The notes under the pieces were generated by a model. That model was not told where the DNA came from, made no database searches, and worked only from the letters and a program-made list of their open reading frames with translations. Position numbers and translations under genes: made by a program. From Thermoanaerobaculia bacterium (GTDB lineage Bacteria; Acidobacteriota; Thermoanaerobaculia; UBA5066): DNA of 64,000 bases. The DNA lies in assembly GCA_963816185.1 (NCBI GenBank), contig CAWFJJ010000001.1, positions 32,001-96,000 of the forward strand, read 5' to 3'. Of this stretch, positions 1-15,211 are shown piece by piece; the stretch's first letter is position 1, and each line of letters begins with the position of its first letter.

Positions 1-186
1 AACGTCGTCCTCGCGGGCGGCGGCTCGCAGATTCCCGGGCTCGCCGCCGCGCTCGAGAAGTCGCTTGCCGAGCTGGGCGGAGGCCGCGTACGCGCCGTCG
101 AGGACCCCGTCTTCGCGGGGTCGAACGGCGGTCTCGCCATCGCGTTGGATGCGCCGGAAGGCGACTGGGAGCCGCTCTCGGCATGA
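1..186 (+). CDS. MamK-like actin-family ATPase, 3' end (partial)
   Basis: Frame 1 reads NVVLAGGGSQIPGLAAALEKSLAELGGGRVRAVEDPVFAGSNGGLAIALDAPEGDWEPLSA*. It has the actin adenosine motif (AGGGS.I.GL) and a DPxFxGxxGxL...P...W tail that resembles MamK rather than MreB. The stop overlaps the next ATG (ATGA). Confidence 0.7.
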   Translation, partial: NVVLAGGGSQIPGLAAALEKSLAELGGGRVRAVEDPVFAGSNGGLAIALDAPEGDWEPLSA

Positions 187-1794
187 GCCCGATCGACAGC
201 GGCTTCCCGCGCGATTCCGGAGTGAAGAGGAGGATGCTCCCGTCGGTGACCGACGTCGTGCGCGAGCTCGCGAAGGTCATCTCCGCGGATCCCGCGGTGC
301 TCTTCAAGGGCGCGCGGAGCGTCGTCGCCGAAGAGCTCGCGAAGGTGAAGCAGGGTTTCGAGGCGGCCCCGCTCGACGTCCTCGTCAAAAGGGCGCGCCT
401 GCAGCTCGAGCGGGACGGCGAGGCGACGCCCGTTTCCGATCCCGCGCCTCCGCGCATGCCCGTCTTCCCGGCGCGGCAAGGGCCCCCGCGCGAGACGCCG
501 GGACCCTCTTCGGCCCACGCGGGCGGTGCCCCCGTGAAATCGCCGGCCTCGGACGATCCCTTTCAGGACGTCGCGTCCCGAGCAGAGCTGAACTGGGAAA
601 AGGAGATCCCGATCCAGGCCGAGGATGCGCCCTTTCGGTCCGCCATCATTCCCATCCCGTACAAGGCGCGCGCGCCGCTCGAGATCTCCCAGCCGATCGA
701 AGCGCCGCCGAAGGCCGCCCCGGAGCCGAAGCCGCCGCCCGTGCCGAAGCCGCAGCCGGAGCTGGAGCTGGATTTCGCAAGGCCCCGGTCCGCACCGGCC
801 GCGCCCGAGCCGCCCGCACAGACCCTCAGGCCCGTGCCCCCGAAACCCGCGGCGGCGATGTCCGAGCCGCCGGCGCCCAAGGCAAAGCCCGTGTCTCCTG
901 AGCCGGAGCCCGAAAAGCCGTTGCCGCGCCCTGCGGTCGCGTTCGCGCCCGCCATCCCGCTCGTGAATCCGCGCGAACCCGAGGTCGTGGAGCCGATCTC
1001 CCCGCCCGCGGTGGTCCCTCTGCCGCCCGGCCCCGAGCGGTTCCTGAGGGCGCCGACATCGCCGGTGCGACACGAGCCCGCGGTGAGGTCCATGCCGGAG
1101 ATTCCTCCATCCGAAGAGACTCTCGAGGACCGCGACAACACCCAGCCGGCCATGGAGGAGTTCAGGTTCAAGGCGGCGGAGCGCCCGGCCCCTGCTCCGG
1201 CGCCCGCTCGCTCGAGCCGCACGGGCTGGATCGCGGCGATCTTGGGAGTCCTTGCGATCGGAGCAGGCCTTACCTGGGCCGTGCGCGAGGGCGTCTTCAA
1301 GAGCGGGATCCTGAGGAGCGCCCCACCCGCCGCGCAGCAGGAGTCCGACGCGACGCCTCCCGCGAGCGCCGTGCCCGCGCCGGTGCCCACGGCTGCCCTG
1401 GTACCTGAAGAGAAGCCGGCGGCTCCGCCGCCGAAGGCCCTTGCCGCGCCGGCGAAGACAGCCGGCCGCCGGTCCTCCCTCGGGTGCCGCGGTCCCGAAG
1501 GGCCGCGCGGCGGTGCTCCTGACTCCCGACTGGGCGGGGAAGCCCATCGTCTACGTCATCCACTTCTCGTCGACGAAGGATCGCGAGGGCGCGGAGAAAG
1601 AGGCGCGGAAGCTCGGCGCCGCGCTCGGCGCTCCCGCACACGCCGTCGAGGTGGATCTCGGCGAAAAGGGGATCTGGTACCGCGTCGTGATCGGCGAGTT
1701 CAAAGACGTGGACTCCGCGCGCGCGTTCCGCGCCGAGCTCGAGGCGAAGAAGACGCCCGGCATGGGCTTCGTCTACGAGATGCGGGGGCGCTGA
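183..1794 (+). CDS. Pro-rich bitopic membrane protein with C-terminal SPOR domain (frameshift near 1465-1480)
   Basis: ORF 183 has a helical N-terminus, a long Pro/Glu-rich linker and a TM segment (WIAAILGVLAIGAGLTWAV). It continues in the frame of ORF 1441..1794, which has a SPOR signature (YVIHFSS...A...A.KL...GIWYRVVIGEF...A..F). Confidence 0.7.
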
Positions 1795-1888
1795 CGGCGG
1801 CGAAAAGCGCGTCGGCCACCAGCGATCGCGCGGGCAATGCGTTGCGATATCGCATCTTGCTTGCATTGATGCTCCTCGCGGTACGGAG

Positions 1889-3019
1889 ATGGTGACCGCG
1901 ATGGCGGTGATTTTTGTCGCGGTGTTGGGCTCGTGGAGCGTTTGGCAGCATCGGCGGACCGGCCCGTGGGTGCTCGTTTCGCAGAAGGGGCCGCTCGTCC
2001 TCCAGTTCGGCAACAATCCCAATGCGAACGGTACGTACAACGCAACACTGAAGCCGGTCGTCTCACCGGCTGGCTGGGAATTCATCCAGGCGCGCCCTTG
2101 GATGGCGGCAAAGCTCGCCGTGAGGAAATTCGCGTACTTCTTCGGCTTCCTGAAGGACGGGTGGAACGTGCCACGTGCGTCGGCGCTGCTCATCGCACGA
2201 TTGACGTTTGGCGCGGTCTCGCTCGTCGTGTGCGAGGCGCTCATGCGAAGCACGGCATCGGTGTTTGCGCTGGCGGGCGCCGTCGTGATCCTCGCGACTC
2301 GTCGACTGCGCAGCGAGCTTTGGGTTCTCCCCGCCGTGATCGGCGCGACACTGGGTCTGCACGTCGTGTCGATCTCCTCGCACCGATTCGCGATCCCCGT
2401 GCTTCCGGTGCTTTTTCTCCTCGCGGGGATCGCCGTTGCGACCGGTGCGCATTGGTTATTGCGGCGCGTTCCCGCCCTGATGCTTTGGGCCGGGCTGTTC
2501 GTGTTCACCGCGTGGGCGGGGGTGGCTGCAGCCTGTCATCCAAACGTGCACGCGCGCGTTGAGGGCGAGGACCTCGATGGAAACCTCGCAGACGACGTCG
2601 TCGACGAACGGGCGAGCAATGGGCACGCTCGTTACGCGGACATGGGCCGAGGCCAGCGCGGGATGGCCATCGTGACGGACGAATTCCTGCCGAAAGGGAG
2701 GTTTCGGCTGACGCTCGATTTGCGTGCCGACCGGGCAGGTGAGGTGGCAGAAGTAACGATGCCAATGGAGGGAGGGAGAGACGCATGCAGGGAGATGTTG
2801 CGTTCATCTGGCCGAGCTCGTTACGAACGGGTCATCGTGGACGGCATGCTGCCTGCGGACACGTCGGTGAAGGTGATCGTCACCAGCAATGGTGTCGCCG
2901 ATGTTTGGCTCGACGGGCTTTACATCGAAGCGGGCCTACGGGACAGAATGAAAGGCGACCTCTTCGGCAATGTGCACGTCGAGGAGCTCGTCTTCGTGAG
3001 CCGCGGCACCGCGCCTTGA
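1889..3019 (+). CDS. Membrane glycosyltransferase-like protein (ArnT/GT-C type), probably N-terminally truncated
   Basis: Motifs GxxLQFGNNPNANG and HRFAIPVLP, several TM helices and a C-terminal beta-rich carbohydrate-binding-like region. It lacks the long N-terminal TM part expected for the family and is visibly more AT-rich than its flanks. Confidence 0.45.
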   Translation: MVTAMAVIFVAVLGSWSVWQHRRTGPWVLVSQKGPLVLQFGNNPNANGTYNATLKPVVSPAGWEFIQARPWMAAKLAVRKFAYFFGFLKDGWNVPRASALLIARLTFGAVSLVVCEALMRSTASVFALAGAVVILATRRLRSELWVLPAVIGATLGLHVVSISSHRFAIPVLPVLFLLAGIAVATGAHWLLRRVPALMLWAGLFVFTAWAGVAAACHPNVHARVEGEDLDGNLADDVVDERASNGHARYADMGRGQRGMAIVTDEFLPKGRFRLTLDLRADRAGEVAEVTMPMEGGRDACREMLRSSGRARYERVIVDGMLPADTSVKVIVTSNGVADVWLDGLYIEAGLRDRMKGDLFGNVHVEELVFVSRGTAP

Positions 3020-3080
3020 CTGCCGTGGCCGTCGACGGAGGCGACTTGACATCTGATGCGTGATGCGTGATGCTGTTCGC

Positions 3081-3308
3081 ATGAGGACGACACTCGAGAT
3101 CGACGACGACGTCTTGCAGGCGGCGAAGGAGATCGCGGCCAACCGCTCGACCACGGCCGGTCGAGTCCTCTCGGAGCTGGCGCGAAAAGCGCTAGAGCCT
3201 GGAAGATCGCCGCGCGTGCGCAACGGTGTTCCGCTGATTCCTCGCCGGCCGAAGGGGAGCGTTCGCCCGACGATGGCTCTCGTCAACCGGCTCCGGGACG
3301 AGGCGTGA
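3081..3308 (+). CDS. vapB: VapB-type antitoxin (ribbon-helix-helix)
   Basis: MRTTLEIDDDVLQAAKEIA...RNGVPL; GTGA overlap with the PIN toxin. Confidence 0.85.
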   Translation: MRTTLEIDDDVLQAAKEIAANRSTTAGRVLSELARKALEPGRSPRVRNGVPLIPRRPKGSVRPTMALVNRLRDEA

Positions 3309-3748
3309 CGCGCGTCGCCCTCCTCGACGTCAACGTCCTCGTCGCGCTGTTCGATCCTGATCACGTGCACCACGAAGCCGCGCACCGGTGGTTCGGCGGC
3401 AACCGTCAGGCGGGCTGGGCCACGTGTCCGATCACCGAGAACGGGCTCGTGCGGATTCTTTCGAACCCCGCATACATGGCCAGCCCCGAGACGCGGGGAG
3501 CGATCATCCGTCGCCTCGGCGAGTTCTGCGCGAGCGGTGGTCACGTCTTCTGGCCGGACGAGATCTCGCTTCGGGACCCCGGTCTTTTCAGGTGGACCGC
3601 GCCCGTAGCTCATCAGAAGCTGACAGACGTCTACCTGCTGGGTCTTGCCAGGAGCAAGACTGGGAGACTCGCCACATTCGACCGGGGCATCCCTGCCGCG
3701 GCCGTGGTCGGAGCCGAGCGGGGAACGCTCGAAGTGATCCCGGCCTGA
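3305..3748 (+). CDS. vapC: VapC PIN-domain ribonuclease toxin
   Basis: LLDVNVLVAL...TCPITENG...TDVYLL...LATFD, with the PIN acidic residues present. Confidence 0.9.
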   Translation: MTRVALLDVNVLVALFDPDHVHHEAAHRWFGGNRQAGWATCPITENGLVRILSNPAYMASPETRGAIIRRLGEFCASGGHVFWPDEISLRDPGLFRWTAPVAHQKLTDVYLLGLARSKTGRLATFDRGIPAAAVVGAERGTLEVIPA

Positions 3749-12243: not shown

Positions 12244-13969
12244 ATGCGCCTGAAGCTCGGACTCTTGCTGGTCGCGCTCGGTACCGGCCTACCCGCGTGT
12301 CCGGAAACGGCCCCTCTTCTCGTCGACGGCCTGCGCGCGGACCTCTCCTCCGCCGCCGAGTTCGCCCTCGGAGACGCTCCGGACGGCGTCGCGGGTCTCG
12401 ACCGCCTCGAATGGCGCCCCATCCGCGTCCCCGGGTCGTGGCAAGAAGCCGGCATCCCGGAGCACGGGTATGCGTGGTACCGGTTCCGATTCACTCTGTC
12501 GGCCGCGGCTGCCGTACATCCGCTTGCGTTCACGTGCTCGCAGATCCGTGACGTGGACGAGACCTTCCTCGACGGCGTCCGCGTCGGGGGGACGGGCGCG
12601 TTCCCGCCCCGGTACGACAAGGGCACGCTTCAGGCGCGCCTGTACGAGCTTCCGGCGTCGCTCACGAGCGCCCCAGGCCCGCACGTTCTCGCCGTGCGCG
12701 TCTTCAACGCGGGTCCGCGGCCCGGAGGCCTCACGGCCGCGCCTTTTCTCGACACCGTGTCGGGCGCGTTCTGGGACCGGACGATGTTCGAATCGCCGCT
12801 CGCCCTCGTGGCCGCGGCGATCTTCTCGCTGGGCGTCTTCGCGCTTTTCGTATTCCTTCGCGACCGGCGGCAGCGCGAGTTCCTGCTCTTTTTCCTTCTG
12901 ACCGCCGGCGTGGCGGCGTACGTCGCCTCCTGGTTGTCGCTCTGGTCGCGTTTCGGCGTGTCCCTGTCGTTCATCTTCCGGGCGAACTTCGCCCTCGCCT
13001 TCTCTCTCGGCCCTGCTCACGCTGTTCTTTCACTACTTCTTCGTCCTTGCGGTCCCGCGGTGGATGCGCGTCGTTCTCGCGATCCAGCTCGCCGGCTTCC
13101 TCGTGACCTGCGCGTTGCCTCGGGTCGACGACCTCTACTTCATCCTGCCGGTTTGTTATGCAACGGTGATCGTGAGCGGCTTCCACGTCGTGCACGTGCT
13201 CGTGCGCAAGCTGCGCCGGCGCGCTCCGCACGCTCTCACGATCCTCGTGGGCTTCGGGCTGATTTTTCTCGCGACGCTCCGCGACATGGCGCAGGACCTC
13301 GGGCTGATCCCCTGGGGCGTGAGGACGCGTTACGTGGGCCTCGCCTTCCTCGTCTTCGCAGTCCTGTTCCTGTCGGTCGTCGCGGACCGCATGGCGCGCC
13401 TCCGGGTGGCCGCGTCGACGGACCCGTTGACCGGCCTTCCGAATCGCGCGGGCCTCTTCGAGCGCATCCGGATGGAGCTCGCGAGAAGCCAGCGCTCGAA
13501 TCTCTCGCTCGCGCTCGCCGTCCTCGACCTCGATCGCTTCAAGGAGTTCAACGACCGCTTCGGACACCTGGCCGGGGACCGGCTTCTCATCGCGGCGGGC
13601 GAGCGCCTCGCGGAGTCGGTGCGCACGACCGATCTCGCCGTGCGCTTCGGGGGAGAGGAGTTCGTCCTTCTCCTGCCCGAAATCTCCGCCGAGGAGGCCA
13701 TGCGCTGCTGCGAACGGATCCGCGAGGCCGTGCGCGGCATCCGTGTGTTCGGCGCCGAGACCGGTACGACGATCTCCATCGGAGTCGCCGTCCACGAGCC
13801 GAAAGGCGGCTCGCCGCCCACCGAGGCCTCTCTTCTGCGCGTGGCCGACGCCGCGCTCTACCGGGCAAAGGCCCTGGGGCGTGACCGCGTCTTCCTGGCG
13901 GAGGGTCCGGTGCCCCGCGAGACCTCGCGGACCGCGAGCGGCGATTCCGTGCGGAGTGAAGCCATCTGA
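12244..13969 (+). CDS. Membrane diguanylate cyclase with extracellular sugar-binding (jelly-roll) domain and 7TM-like region; +1 frameshift at ~13009
   Basis: The N-terminus has VPGSW...GYAWYRFRF...DETFLDG...HVLAVRV. Removing one G at 13009-13010 joins it to ORF 13064..13969, which has DPLTGLPNR, DLDRFK, the RxxD I-site (RTTD) and GGEEF. Confidence 0.8.
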
Positions 13970-13994: not shown

Positions 13995-14613
13995 ATGAGG
14001 GTCACGATCCTCGCCCTCGTCTCGTTCGCGGCGGCAGCGGCCGGATCGGCCGCCGCGCAGCAGCCGACGCTCGTTCCGGAAGCGAGGCCGACACCCGCCG
14101 AGGAGCACGTCGTGGCGCCGTCCCTTCCCGATCAGCCGAACAAGGAAGGCGTCGTCCGTCCCAGCGGCTCGATGCCGACCGACTCGGAGGGCTACGTGCG
14201 AACGAATCGGGGTGCGATCGACCCGACCACCAAGTCGCCGGCTCCGGGTTCCGCCCAGGGCGCCGTGCCGGGCCCGGGACTGGCCGGCACCACCCCGGTC
14301 CCGACAGCGTCGCTTGCCCCCCAGCGGAAGCCGACCGTGAAGGCCGCGTACCTGTCGGTGCGCGGCACGGTGAAAGCGTACAAGAAGGGCGTCTCGATCA
14401 CGGTCGTCGAGGCCAACCGGCGCGAGCGCACCGTGAAGATCGCGGGGAACGCGTCGGTTTACGAAGGCCTCGCCGTGGGCGACAAGGTCGTCGTGAGGAT
14501 CCCGCTCGGGAAGCCGGCGGACGGAAAGACCCTGGACCACGATCGAGAGGCAAAGACCGCTCAGGGCGCCGCCGAAGTCGAAGTTCAGCAAAGCGCAATC
14601 GCCGGCGAGCTGA
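13995..14613 (+). CDS. Exported Pro-rich protein with small C-terminal beta-barrel (OB-like) domain; probable frameshift near 14535
   Basis: Signal peptide MRVTILALVSFAAAAAG; domain GTVKAYKKGVSITV...GLAVGDKVVV. An alternative frame ends TIERQRP...SPAS* at 14613, just before the paralog. Confidence 0.5.
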
Positions 14614-14629
14614 GGAGCCGCATACCGGG

Positions 14630-15211
14630 ATGCCACGGTTTCTCGTCCCTTCGCTCCCTCTTCTGGCTGTCCTCGCGGGGCCTCTCGCCGCGCAGCAGCC
14701 CACCCCGACGCCTGCAAATGCGGTCGATCCGGCCGACCAGTCCGCCGTGGCTCCCGCGCTCCCCGTGCGCGCGAACGAGCCGAATCCCGAGGTGGTCCTC
14801 GGCGCTCCCCCCGCCGCGACTCCCGCGGTGGCGCCGTCGCCGTCTCCGCCAGAGCCGGTCCCCGCTTCCGTCAAACAACAGGAGGCGCCCACGGTCTCCT
14901 CGCCGCCGATCTCCGTGTCCCCTGCGGCCGGCAGCCCGCACGCGAAAGCGGGTGTGATTTCCGCGAAGCCGGTCGCCGTCTCGCACGGGGCGGCCTCTAC
15001 GGTCACGAGCTATCGGAAAGGCAAGTCCCTGACCGTGAAGACGCCGGCCGGATCGCTCGTTCAGTACCGCCTCGGGAAGCACACGATCCTGCCGGACGGT
15101 CTCGCTCCCGGCCGCCAGGTCCTCGTCGAGACGAGAATCATCAAGAAGCGTCGCGTCGCGACGAAAGTTTCGTACGCCGAGGGCCGCGTCGTCCTCACGA
15201 ACGTGAACTGA
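14630..15211 (+). CDS. Exported Pro-rich protein, paralog of the upstream gene
   Basis: Signal peptide ending AAQQPT as in the upstream gene; domain STVTSYRKGKSLTV...GLAPGRQVLV; GAGGAG RBS. Confidence 0.6.
   Translation: MPRFLVPSLPLLAVLAGPLAAQQPTPTPANAVDPADQSAVAPALPVRANEPNPEVVLGAPPAATPAVAPSPSPPEPVPASVKQQEAPTVSSPPISVSPAAGSPHAKAGVISAKPVAVSHGAASTVTSYRKGKSLTVKTPAGSLVQYRLGKHTILPDGLAPGRQVLVETRIIKKRRVATKVSYAEGRVVLTNVN

What the first reader, a model, noticed from the sequence alone, without database searches (positions are those of the whole stretch)
1..1794. MamK-like actin translationally coupled to a long Pro-rich TM-SPOR protein: candidate wall-anchored cytoskeletal system
Seen: the window starts with an actin C-terminus ending DPVFAGSNGGLAIALDAPEGDW, and its stop overlaps (ATGA) a protein with about 350 cytoplasmic Pro/Glu-rich residues, one TM and a periplasmic SPOR domain. 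Established: this tail resembles MamK (DPxFxGxxGAL...P...W) more than MreB; MamK works with the acidic, low-complexity adaptor MamJ; SPOR domains bind denuded septal glycan. Inference: a non-magnetosome MamK-type filament tethered through the membrane to peptidoglycan, perhaps to position organelles or polar pili. No other mam genes are recognisable here.
Basis: partly seen in the sequence, partly recalled or inferred. Interest (0 to 1): 0.72.

Follow-up and report, generated by a model that had tools for sequence, protein, structure and literature searches.

The report
Actin–amidase–SPOR cell-wall gene module
The window opens inside a conserved three-gene unit of soil Acidobacteria, made of a membrane-anchored cell-wall amidase, a MamK-type bacterial actin and a membrane-spanning SPOR protein, which probably lets a cytoplasmic filament organise cell-wall cutting; in this window the SPOR gene is broken by one extra base.

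Summary
Window 1-186 encodes the last 61 residues of an actin. This fragment and its 339-aa relatives match the MamK family far better than MreB. Its stop overlaps (ATGA, 183-186) the start of a gene for a helical N-domain, a Pro-rich linker, one TM helix and a SPOR domain.

Two corrections:
- The SPOR domain lies in another reading frame. One extra base near 1458 breaks the gene, whereas 29 of 30 related loci have one continuous ORF.
In 78 of 80 related loci (the other two are cut at the contig edge) an AmiA/B/C-type amidase gene lies directly upstream of the actin. This amidase has a conserved cytoplasmic N-tail and one TM helix.

The amidase-linked actins form their own clade (100/100), apart from the clade holding a Paramagnetospirillum MamK-like protein. 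No magnetosome families were found.

The SPOR partner follows the actin in only 36 of 80 loci. Another clade has a PilZ-domain bitopic protein instead.

Best reading: a filament that scaffolds wall-hydrolysis proteins, with SPOR binding the amidase's product. Binding is untested because the complex prediction never ran. I found no paper describing this module.

The parts
1..186 (+). 3' end of a MamK-family actin gene: the last 61 codons plus the TGA stop at 184-186. The gene starts upstream of the window.
   Evidence: ORF. NCBIfam MamK NF040964: 58.2 bits, E 6.9e-16, profile positions 272-330 of 335. Relatives of 339 aa are 95-97% identical over the 61 residues.
183..186 (+). ATGA overlap of the actin stop and the partner start, which implies translational coupling.
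   Evidence: Sequence. The same junction occurs in 31 of 36 related loci.
183..1457 (+). SPOR-protein gene, upstream reading frame (residues 1-425): N-domain, linker, TM helix and the start of the periplasmic linker.
   Evidence: Matches 106 proteins at E <= 1e-3, the best at E 5.7e-164; nearly all carry PF05036. The alignment follows the homologues as far as ...PAKTA.
246..416 (+). Conserved cytoplasmic three-helix domain (residues 22-78), with no known family.
   Evidence: AlphaFold helices at 22-32, 37-56 and 64-78; block pLDDT 91-95. There are 24 invariant columns, 20 of them within residues 36-75. Pfam and NCBIfam give 0 families. Foldseek against the PDB gives 0 matches at E <= 0.001.
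558..686 (+). Conserved motif inside a stretch predicted disordered (residues 126-168; P126 and R152-A154 invariant; F127, W138-K140 and D148-F151 nearly so). Candidate short binding motif.
   Evidence: Invariant and nearly invariant columns in the 62-sequence alignment. pLDDT is 47-57 there.
438..1202 (+). Pro/Ala/Glu-rich cytoplasmic linker (residues 86-340), variable in length among relatives.
   Evidence: Composition. pLDDT is mostly below 50. Length variation is seen.
1218..1304 (+). Single transmembrane helix (residues 346-374).
   Evidence: AlphaFold helix 346-374. Hydropathy segment 347-368.
1458..1458 (+). Frameshift site: one extra base relative to relatives. Whether it is a real mutation or an assembly error is undecided.
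   Evidence: DNA alignment: the window has an extra A in GAAG-A-CAG against 6 of 6 relatives. Protein alignment. 29 of 30 related loci are continuous.
1459..1794 (+). SPOR-protein gene, downstream reading frame: periplasmic linker, SPOR domain (1552-1749) and stop (1792-1794).
   Evidence: PF05036 SPOR: E 6e-10, 39.8 bits against a cut-off of 21, residues 38-103 of window:1441-1791. It aligns with the C-termini of the homologues.

Best explanation
The window begins inside a three-gene envelope module of a Thermoanaerobaculia-like acidobacterium. The gene order is bitopic AmiA/B/C-type N-acetylmuramoyl-L-alanine amidase (just upstream of the window), then a MamK-family actin, then a bitopic SPOR protein.

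Shown:
- The three genes are tightly packed. In L001 one base separates the amidase stop from the actin start, and the actin and SPOR genes overlap by 4 bases.
- The amidase-actin pair is conserved wherever it can be tested.
- Both envelope proteins have a conserved cytoplasmic N-terminal part, one TM helix and a periplasmic wall-directed domain.

Inferred:
- The actin polymerises in the cytoplasm with ATP. Its phosphate-binding motifs, and the Glu that I recall as MamK's catalytic E143, are conserved.
- The filament binds the cytoplasmic N-parts of the amidase and of the SPOR protein, and so fixes where, and perhaps when, stem peptides are cut from peptidoglycan.
- The SPOR domain then binds the denuded glycan that the amidase produces, holding the assembly at the site of cutting.
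- By analogy with AmiA/B/C and SPOR proteins in E. coli, the most likely site is the division septum, during daughter-cell separation.

In this window the SPOR gene is interrupted by one extra base. Either the assembly is wrong at that base or this strain lacks an exported SPOR domain.
For: Actin identity:
- The fragment and 7 of 7 full-length relatives score best on the MamK model. The nearest solved structures are the entries I recall as MamK (256 bits).
- The DLGTS, DIGAGTTD and GGGS motifs, and E139 aligned with chain residue 143, are conserved.

Synteny:
- An amidase HMM hit lies directly upstream on the same strand in 78 of 80 loci. The two misses, L010 and L046, have the actin at the contig edge.
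- Pfam Amidase_3 scores E 1.5e-43 to 6.9e-50 in the 5 upstream ORFs scanned.
- In L001 the amidase occupies 1649-2641 and the actin starts at 2643.

Amidase architecture:
- A conserved N-tail is followed by a hydrophobic segment at about residues 36-66 in most loci.
- The AlphaFold model has helix 2-23, helix 29-60, a disordered stretch 59-99 and a confident catalytic domain.
- The best sequence match in the PDB is E. coli AmiA 8c2o (117 bits), aligned through the inserted helices that the short amidases lack.
- The best fold match is also AmiA (TM 0.83, rmsd 2.2).

SPOR partner:
- It lies directly downstream in 36 of 80 loci. A SPOR domain is found in 30 of those 36; the other 6 end before it.
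- The junction is ATGA in 31 of 36.
- The N-domain folds confidently.

Functional link and analogy:
- SPOR domains recognise glycan strands stripped of peptides by amidases (PMC6895207, start of abstract seen in the listing).
- A working precedent for a cytoskeletal polymer paired with a bitopic wall hydrolase bound through its cytoplasmic tail is bactofilin-LmdC (PMC10945521, passages).
- In a sister clade the third gene is again bitopic: PilZ, linker, TM helix, linker and a C-terminal domain.
Against: - No binding was tested.
- No actin residue separates the 36 loci with a SPOR partner from the 44 without (0 positions at my thresholds).
- The SPOR partner is missing from 44 of 80 loci, so it cannot be essential to the core.
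- The SPOR reading frame is broken in this very window.
- The amidase gene itself is not in the window. Its presence here is inferred from relatives.
- A look-alike motif in the two cytoplasmic N-parts is not statistically supported (hhalign P 0.1).
- Septal location, ATP-driven polymerisation and amidase regulation are inferred from other systems. No member of this clade has been studied, as far as my searches show.
Confidence: 0.5

Rival explanations
1. The core machine is only amidase plus actin. The SPOR protein is a lineage-specific accessory that acts on or with the amidase in the envelope, for example by retaining it on its product. It does not contact the filament, and its long cytoplasmic part serves another purpose.
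For: - The SPOR partner occurs in only 36 of 80 loci, whereas the amidase occurs in 78 of 78 testable loci.
- Forcing the partner-bearing actins into one clade is rejected (AU p 0.008; the group was named after the tree was seen). This implies loss or repeated gain.
- No actin positions track the partner.
- Another clade carries a different bitopic protein, with PilZ, on the other side of the amidase.
Against: - The ATGA coupling to the actin gene in 31 of 36 loci suggests matched amounts of the two proteins.
- A well conserved, confidently folded cytoplasmic N-domain and a conserved disordered motif need a cytoplasmic ligand. The actin is the only cytoplasmic protein of the module.
Confidence: 0.2
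2. One reading: a non-magnetosome MamK filament tethered to the wall through the SPOR protein in order to position organelles or polar pili.
For: The MamK-type actin and the bitopic SPOR architecture are confirmed. A type IV pilus or T2SS-like gene cluster lies at about 24-48 kb in the window.
Against: - No magnetosome or other organelle family turned up among the 45 window ORFs scanned or the 57 ORFs of 8 related loci.
- The pilus genes are more than 20 kb away. None appeared among the ORFs scanned within about 4.5 kb of the actin in related SPOR-type loci such as L002, L020 and L030.
- The one constant neighbour is a wall amidase.
Confidence: 0.08
3. The genes are only co-transcribed, without physical coupling. 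The actin has a cytoskeletal role of its own, such as shape or segregation, unrelated to the amidase.
For: No interaction data exist, and gene neighbours often do not bind each other.
Against: - The pair is kept in 78 of 78 testable loci whose record titles name Acidobacteriota, Methylomirabilota/Rokubacteria, Binatia and 'delta proteobacterium' MAGs. The flanking genes differ among the 8 loci scanned.
- The amidase carries a conserved cytoplasmic tail, which has no obvious use without a cytoplasmic partner.
- The actin has no evident membrane-targeting segment of its own (sequences; my reading).
Confidence: 0.12
4. The frameshift at 1458 is real. In this strain the SPOR domain is no longer made as part of an exported protein, and the module works, or decays, as amidase plus actin with a truncated partner.
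For: - One extra base against 6 of 6 relatives, not in a long homopolymer.
- Many lineages lack the partner altogether.
Against: - Both halves are still well conserved. The SPOR piece scores 193 bits on the family HMM, as high as in intact relatives, and there is no second lesion.
- One related assembly (L019) shows the same kind of break, which fits sporadic assembly indels.
- Without reads this cannot be settled.
Confidence: 0.3

Closest known systems
MamK (magnetosome actin) with its adaptor MamJ
   Same: - The actin is closest to MamK in sequence. It is about 39% identical over 333 aligned positions (130 identities, my count) and scores 369-382 bits on the NCBIfam MamK model.
- Like MamK (recalled), it has no obvious membrane anchor and would need adaptors.
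   Different: - Relatives score below the family cut-off of 400 bits.
- The amidase-linked actins form a separate clade (100/100), apart from the clade that holds the Paramagnetospirillum MamK-like protein.
- There are no magnetosome genes nearby.
- The partners are wall proteins, not MamJ.
FtsA with FtsN (division actin plus bitopic SPOR protein)
   Same: An actin-fold protein beside a bitopic protein whose periplasmic end is a SPOR domain. The SPOR piece gives a weak hit to the FtsN model over its SPOR part (E 9e-4).
   Different: - The FtsN model scores 18.8 bits against a cut-off of 107.65.
- Here the long Pro-rich linker is cytoplasmic and the periplasmic linker is short, the reverse of FtsN (recalled).
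- The FtsA model reached E 1e-5 in only 1 of the 7 relatives scanned (P0035, 25 bits).
Bactofilin BacA with the M23 endopeptidase LmdC
   Same: A widely conserved gene pair of a cytoskeletal polymer and a bitopic wall hydrolase. The hydrolase is recruited through its short N-terminal cytoplasmic tail (PMC10945521, passages). This is the closest analogue in how the system would work.
   Different: - The polymer is a nucleotide-binding actin, not a bactofilin.
- The hydrolase is an amidase, not an M23 peptidase.
- There is an extra SPOR or PilZ bitopic protein.
- Binding is not shown here.
E. coli AmiA/AmiB/AmiC cell-separation amidases
   Same: The catalytic domain is most like AmiA in sequence (117 bits) and in fold (TM 0.83). 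This includes the inserted helices that, in AmiA/B/C, block the active site until an activator binds (the role is recalled).
   Different: It is anchored by an N-terminal TM helix with a conserved cytoplasmic tail, instead of being a soluble periplasmic enzyme. No AMIN domain is present, and the activator is unknown.
MreB with RodZ, and MreBH with LytE
   Same: An actin homologue coupled to a bitopic adaptor (RodZ), or directing a wall hydrolase (LytE). Both are recalled; the papers listed were seen by title and start of abstract only.
   Different: The MreB models score only 53-73 bits against cut-offs of 293 and 366. No mreCD or rodZ genes were seen in the loci scanned.

Membership tests
MamK family actin (NCBIfam NF040964) | Whole-protein score at or above the curated cut-off (400 bits). 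| tested here: not met
   The window holds only 61 residues (58.2 bits). Seven of 7 close full-length relatives score 368.6-382.4 bits. Six further locus actins score 362-381 bits. MamK is the best family by far, but all scores are below the cut-off.
MamK family actin (NCBIfam NF040964) | Closest solved structure is MamK. | tested here: met
   5ljw, 5jyg and 5ljv score 255-256 bits (E about 1e-75). Next are 8r2n at 155 bits and MreB at 46 bits. That these entries are MamK is recalled; the table calls them 'Actin-like ATPase'.
Magnetosome MamK (functional sense) | Encoded in a magnetosome gene cluster. | tested here: not met
   No magnetosome family was found among 45 window ORFs or 57 ORFs of 8 related loci.
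Magnetosome MamK (functional sense) | Groups with MamK of magnetotactic bacteria in a tree. | tested here: not met
   Careful tree of 64 rows: the 23 amidase-linked actins plus P0227 form one clade (100/100). P0311, whose cluster holds the MamK-like protein of Paramagnetospirillum magneticum, sits with P0264 in another clade (100/98).
MreB | Score above the cut-offs of TIGR00904 (365.75) or NF010539 (293). | tested here: not met
   53-58 bits and 66-73 bits in 7 of 7 relatives.
SPOR domain protein (PF05036) | SPOR domain above the gathering score. | tested here: met
   39.8 bits against 21, E 6e-10.
SPOR domain protein (PF05036) | SPOR domain joined to an export signal or TM helix in one ORF, so that it reaches the periplasm. 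| tested here: not met
   In this window the TM helix and the SPOR domain lie in different frames. The condition is met in 29 of 30 related loci.
FtsN (TIGR02223) | Score above the cut-off (107.65 bits). | tested here: not met
   18.8 bits, over the SPOR part only.
AmiA/B/C-type amidase (PF01520 with regulatory insertion) | Amidase_3 domain with the inserted helices; nearest structure AmiA/B/C. | tested here: met
   Tested on relatives only, because the gene lies upstream of the window. PF01520 scores 149-170 bits. AmiA 8c2o aligns over residues 104-319, whereas the short amidases align only to about residue 197. Foldseek gives AmiA TM 0.83.
Cytoskeleton plus bitopic hydrolase module (BacA-LmdC type) | Conserved adjacency of the polymer gene and the hydrolase gene. 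| tested here: met
   78 of 80 loci; the other 2 are untestable.
Cytoskeleton plus bitopic hydrolase module (BacA-LmdC type) | Direct binding of the hydrolase's cytoplasmic tail to the polymer. | not tested
   No job pairing the actin with the amidase tail was sent. The one complex job I tried to send paired the actin with the SPOR-protein N-part, and it was never accepted by the queue.

The most novel reading that the evidence does not exclude
MamK-family actins outside magnetotactic bacteria form a third actin-based wall-remodelling system, beside MreB and FtsA. An ATP-driven cytoplasmic filament positions, and possibly switches on, a membrane-anchored AmiA-type amidase through its cytoplasmic tail. 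Interchangeable bitopic adaptors (SPOR here, PilZ-linked and so c-di-GMP-responsive elsewhere) couple the filament to the wall. The system is widespread in Acidobacteriota, Methylomirabilota and Binatia. It may represent the kind of wall-linked actin from which the magnetosome MamK was recruited.
Probability: 0.3. Interest if true: 0.8.

Novelty: new variant of a known kind. Interest (0 to 1): 0.62.

Why it matters
- In the passages I read, the BeeR paper describes MamK only as the actin that anchors magnetosomes, and finds BeeR in non-magnetotactic bacteria (PMC11929497). The actins here are closer to MamK than BeeR is: about 39% identity against the 25-30% stated for BeeR.
- They are common.
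- They are locked to a cell-wall amidase. That gives a concrete, testable function for a large and unstudied actin clade in abundant soil phyla.
- It extends the principle of a cytoskeletal polymer recruiting a bitopic wall hydrolase from bactofilins to actins.
- It offers a possible view of what MamK-type actins did before magnetosomes.
- Public annotation calls these proteins 'rod shape-determining protein MreB'. The scores here do not support that name.

Tried and rejected
- Complex prediction. The job (actin alignment A2 with residues 1-180 of the SPOR protein, alignment A3) was never accepted. Binding stays unchecked.
- Fold search of the partner model against the PDB gave 0 of 238 matches at E <= 0.001.
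- The ESM Atlas gave no usable hit for residues 1-180.
- Shared N-terminal motif. By eye, the amidase tail and helix 1 of the SPOR protein look alike. Profile comparison gave probability 0.5-0.6% and P 0.1, so I rejected it as evidence.
- AMIN domain in the PilZ-type partner. It scored E 0.05, below the cut-off, in 1 of 2 proteins tried. This is inconclusive.
- Actin positions specific to loci with a SPOR partner: none found.
- Other features of the region. Opposite-strand and alternative-frame ORFs over 1-2508 gave 0 Pfam families in 4 of 4. Rfam gave 0 matches at E <= 0.1 for 1-3200. No sigma-70-like promoter was found in 1-3200, and 5 terminator-like sites were found against 1.8 expected, none convincing.
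- A bitopic gene downstream of the actin in Rokubacteria-type loci: none. The next gene in L026 carries a metallo-beta-lactamase domain and begins with what looks to me like a NUDIX motif (my reading).
- The GGDEF gene at 12.9-14.0 kb was checked as a gauge of assembly indel errors. The result was inconclusive.
- Gene calling. My simple gene caller chose a wrong-strand ORF over the amidase in L002, L026 and L054. The HMM scan found the amidase there.
- The first tree was a quick one of 123 rows. The careful tree used 64 rows: 23 of the 80 locus actins, and 41 of the 43 representatives. I dropped P0336 and P0260 for very long branches.
- Rooting on the two BeeR-like rows is weakly supported (57/46), so no direction of evolution is claimed.
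Full report
WHAT IS IN THE SEQUENCE

Window 1-186 (+) is the 3' end of a gene. Five more residues (EPLSA) follow, then TGA at 184-186. ATG 183 overlaps this stop as ATGA.

From ATG 183 the reading frame stays open to 1895 (570 aa). The last 145 or so residues are Arg-rich and unlike any relative. The SPOR domain lies in the frame open from 1315 to 1794. Pfam finds SPOR there at E 6e-10, with 39.8 bits against a cut-off of 21.

A protein alignment with six homologues shows where the frames change. The first frame follows the homologues up to ...PAKTA, and the other frame follows them from ...QPAAGPPSG onward. A DNA alignment with six relatives shows one extra base in the window, the A in GAAG-A-CAG at about 1458. 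It is absent from 6 of 6 relatives.

Among related loci that hold both ends of the gene, 29 of 30 have one continuous ORF. L019 is broken like the window. Whether the extra base is an assembly error or a mutation cannot be told without reads.

THE PARTNER PROTEIN

The first frame (residues 1-425) matches 106 proteins at E <= 1e-3. Nearly all carry a C-terminal SPOR domain, and they are 240-584 aa long.

An AlphaFold model built on 62 sequences gives the following:
- A confident three-helix domain at residues 22-78, with block pLDDT of 91-95.
- A long stretch predicted disordered.
- One TM helix at 346-374. Hydropathy places it at 347-368.

Residues 86-340 are 26.7% Pro, 15.3% Ala and 10.6% Glu. 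Within the disordered stretch, a motif at residues 126-168 is nearly invariant, as short binding motifs often are.

The N-terminal 427 residues match no family:
- No Pfam or NCBIfam family at E up to 1.
- No PDB fold at E <= 0.001.
- Nothing usable in the ESM Atlas.

THE ACTIN

The 61-residue fragment scores 58.2 bits (E 6.9e-16) on the NCBIfam MamK model. It scores 10.4 bits on Pfam MreB_Mbl.

A search for longer proteins found 438 at E <= 1e-3 among 982 candidates. The best are 339 aa long, 95-97% identical over the fragment, and come from Thermoanaerobaculia or other Acidobacteriota. Their sources call them 'rod shape-determining protein MreB'.

Seven of 7 such proteins score as follows:

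| Model | Score (bits) | Cut-off (bits) |
|---|---|---|
| MamK (NF040964) | 369-382 | 400 |
| BeeR | 214-227 | 530 |
| MreB (NF010539) | 66-73 | 293 |
| MreB (TIGR00904) | 53-58 | 366 |

Against the PDB:
- Three 'Actin-like ATPase' entries, which I recall as MamK of Magnetospirillum, score 255-256 bits.
- 8r2n scores 155 bits. I presume it is BeeR.
- MreB scores 46 bits.

From the printed alignment I count 130 identities in 333 aligned positions, about 39%. The nucleotide-binding motifs are kept, as is a Glu aligned with chain residue 143 of that structure. That this residue is MamK's catalytic Glu is recalled. For comparison, the BeeR paper states 25-30% identity between BeeR and MamK (PMC11929497, passages).

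The best 80 were fetched with up to 10 kb on each side.

In 78 of 80 loci an amidase gene lies directly upstream on the same strand. The two misses, L010 and L046, have the actin at the very edge of the contig and cannot be tested. Pfam calls the five upstream ORFs I scanned Amidase_3, at E 1.5e-43 to 6.9e-50. In L001 the amidase occupies 1649-2641 and the actin starts at 2643.

The amidase has these features:
- A conserved N-terminal stretch of about 35 residues, then a basic patch, then a hydrophobic segment at about residues 36-66.
- In the AlphaFold model: helix 2-23, helix 29-60, a disordered linker 59-99, and a catalytic domain mostly above pLDDT 90.
- E. coli AmiA as its nearest solved relative, both in sequence (117 bits, aligned through the inserted helices that short amidases lack) and in fold (TM 0.83, rmsd 2.2).

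So it is an AmiA/B/C-type enzyme, but one anchored in the inner membrane with a conserved cytoplasmic tail.

HOW FAR THE SPOR PARTNER GOES

The N-domain of the partner lies directly after the actin in 36 of 80 loci. A SPOR domain follows in 30 of these; the other six contigs end first. The junction is ATGA in 31 of 36, TTGA in one, and different in four.

The 44 other loci fall into two groups:
- 25 have no third gene that I could recognise. By their record titles these are Rokubacteria/Methylomirabilota, Binatia, 'delta proteobacterium' and some Acidobacteriota MAGs.
- 19 have a gene upstream of the amidase for another bitopic protein. It has an N-terminal PilZ domain, a Pro/Ala-rich linker, one TM helix, a second linker and a C-terminal domain of about 100 residues. 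An AMIN match for that last domain is below threshold (E 0.05 in 1 of 2).

TREES

A quick tree of 123 rows and a careful tree of 64 rows were built. The careful tree used 23 of the 80 locus actins and 41 of the 43 representatives; two very long branches were dropped.

Both trees place all amidase-linked actins in one clade, with support of 99 (SH-aLRT) and 100/100 respectively. Its sister is P0229, which NCBI names a MamK family protein of a Nitrospira MAG. P0311 stands for the MamK-like protein of Paramagnetospirillum magneticum. It groups with the best-scoring MamK representative, P0264, in a different clade (100/98).

Forcing the partner-bearing actins into one clade is rejected (AU p 0.008). 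That group was named after I had seen the tree. The SPOR gene was therefore lost or gained more than once. The root is not resolved.

CONTEXT

Forty-five ORFs of the window and 57 ORFs of eight related loci show no magnetosome family. Downstream of the module the window carries, in order:
- a membrane protein with no Pfam family,
- a VapBC-like pair,
- a 2-oxoacid:ferredoxin oxidoreductase,
- a VIT1 transporter.

The oxidoreductase and the VIT1 gene also follow the module in L002. Genes flanking the module differ between the clades scanned. The opposite strand and the other frames over the region give no family. There is no Rfam match.

HOW IT MOST LIKELY WORKS

Shown:
- Tight packing and strict conservation of the amidase-actin pair.
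- Two bitopic proteins, each with a conserved cytoplasmic N-part and a wall-directed periplasmic domain.
- An actin with intact nucleotide-binding motifs.

From established knowledge: SPOR domains bind glycan strands from which amidases have removed the peptides, a form enriched at the septum (PMC6895207, start of abstract).

Inferred:
- The filament binds the two cytoplasmic N-parts.
- It places, and perhaps controls, the amidase.
- The SPOR domain holds on to the product.

The working precedent is bactofilin with the bitopic M23 peptidase LmdC. [quoted passage not shown]

Results against this reading:
- No binding test could be run.
- No actin residue tracks the presence of the SPOR partner.
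- The partner is absent from 44 of 80 loci.
- A motif that seemed shared by the two N-parts is not statistically supported.
- The SPOR gene is broken in this very window.

NOVELTY

These full-text searches returned 0 papers:
- 'MamK-like' with 'amidase'.
- 'MamK' with 'N-acetylmuramoyl-L-alanine amidase'.
- 'actin-like' with 'SPOR domain', 'amidase' and 'Acidobacteria'.

'MamK' with 'Acidobacteria' and 'actin' returned 6 papers. None looked relevant by title, and I checked one by passage. 'MamK' with 'non-magnetotactic' and 'actin-like' returned 22 papers, of which 20 were listed. I saw titles and abstract starts only, and none was about this module.

Papers outside the held library, and all supplements, were not seen.

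I rate the finding a new variant of a known kind. It is a cytoskeleton-guided wall hydrolase, built here from a MamK-type actin, an anchored AmiA-type amidase and a SPOR adaptor.

Noticed in passing
Proteins P0237, P0244-P0253, P0257, P0259, P0273 and P0305: Representatives 32-44% identical to the actin include long proteins (523-1232 aa). They carry the MamK-like domain at the C-terminus, and an N-terminal stretch of 200-900 residues has no Pfam family. P0305 (768 aa) is an FtsZ/tubulin domain fused to a MamK-like actin.
   Followed up: no
L054 7466-8875 and L078 7428-8900; 19 of 80 loci: In a sister clade, the gene upstream of the amidase encodes a bitopic protein with PilZ, a linker, a TM helix, a second linker and a C-terminal domain. 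This suggests c-di-GMP input to the same amidase-actin core. The C-terminal domain gives only a sub-threshold AMIN hit.
   Followed up: partly
window 3060-3748 (+): A VapBC-like pair: an 82-aa ORF overlapping a 147-aa PIN-domain ORF (PF01850, E 1.3e-6). A matching 82-aa and 147-aa PIN pair lies in L020 at 14321-15009.
   Followed up: no
window 12254-13969 (+): A GGDEF protein with only part of a 7TMR-DISM 7TM region. The ORF just upstream is in the same frame and is separated from it by a stop codon, so the gene may be truncated or interrupted.
   Followed up: partly
window 24024-48936: A cluster of type IV pilus or T2SS-like genes: pseudopilins with N-methylation motifs, PilX_N, two T2SSE ATPases (one fused to HEAT repeats), a 1807-aa ORF with no family, and sigma-54 regulators nearby.
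   Followed up: no
L019 11017-12643: One related assembly shows the same kind of frame change between the N-domain and the SPOR domain as the window does.
   Followed up: no
window 1889-3016 (+): A 376-aa ORF with no Pfam family starts 95 nt after the SPOR stop. A terminator-like hairpin at 1895-1908 overlaps its start.
   Followed up: no
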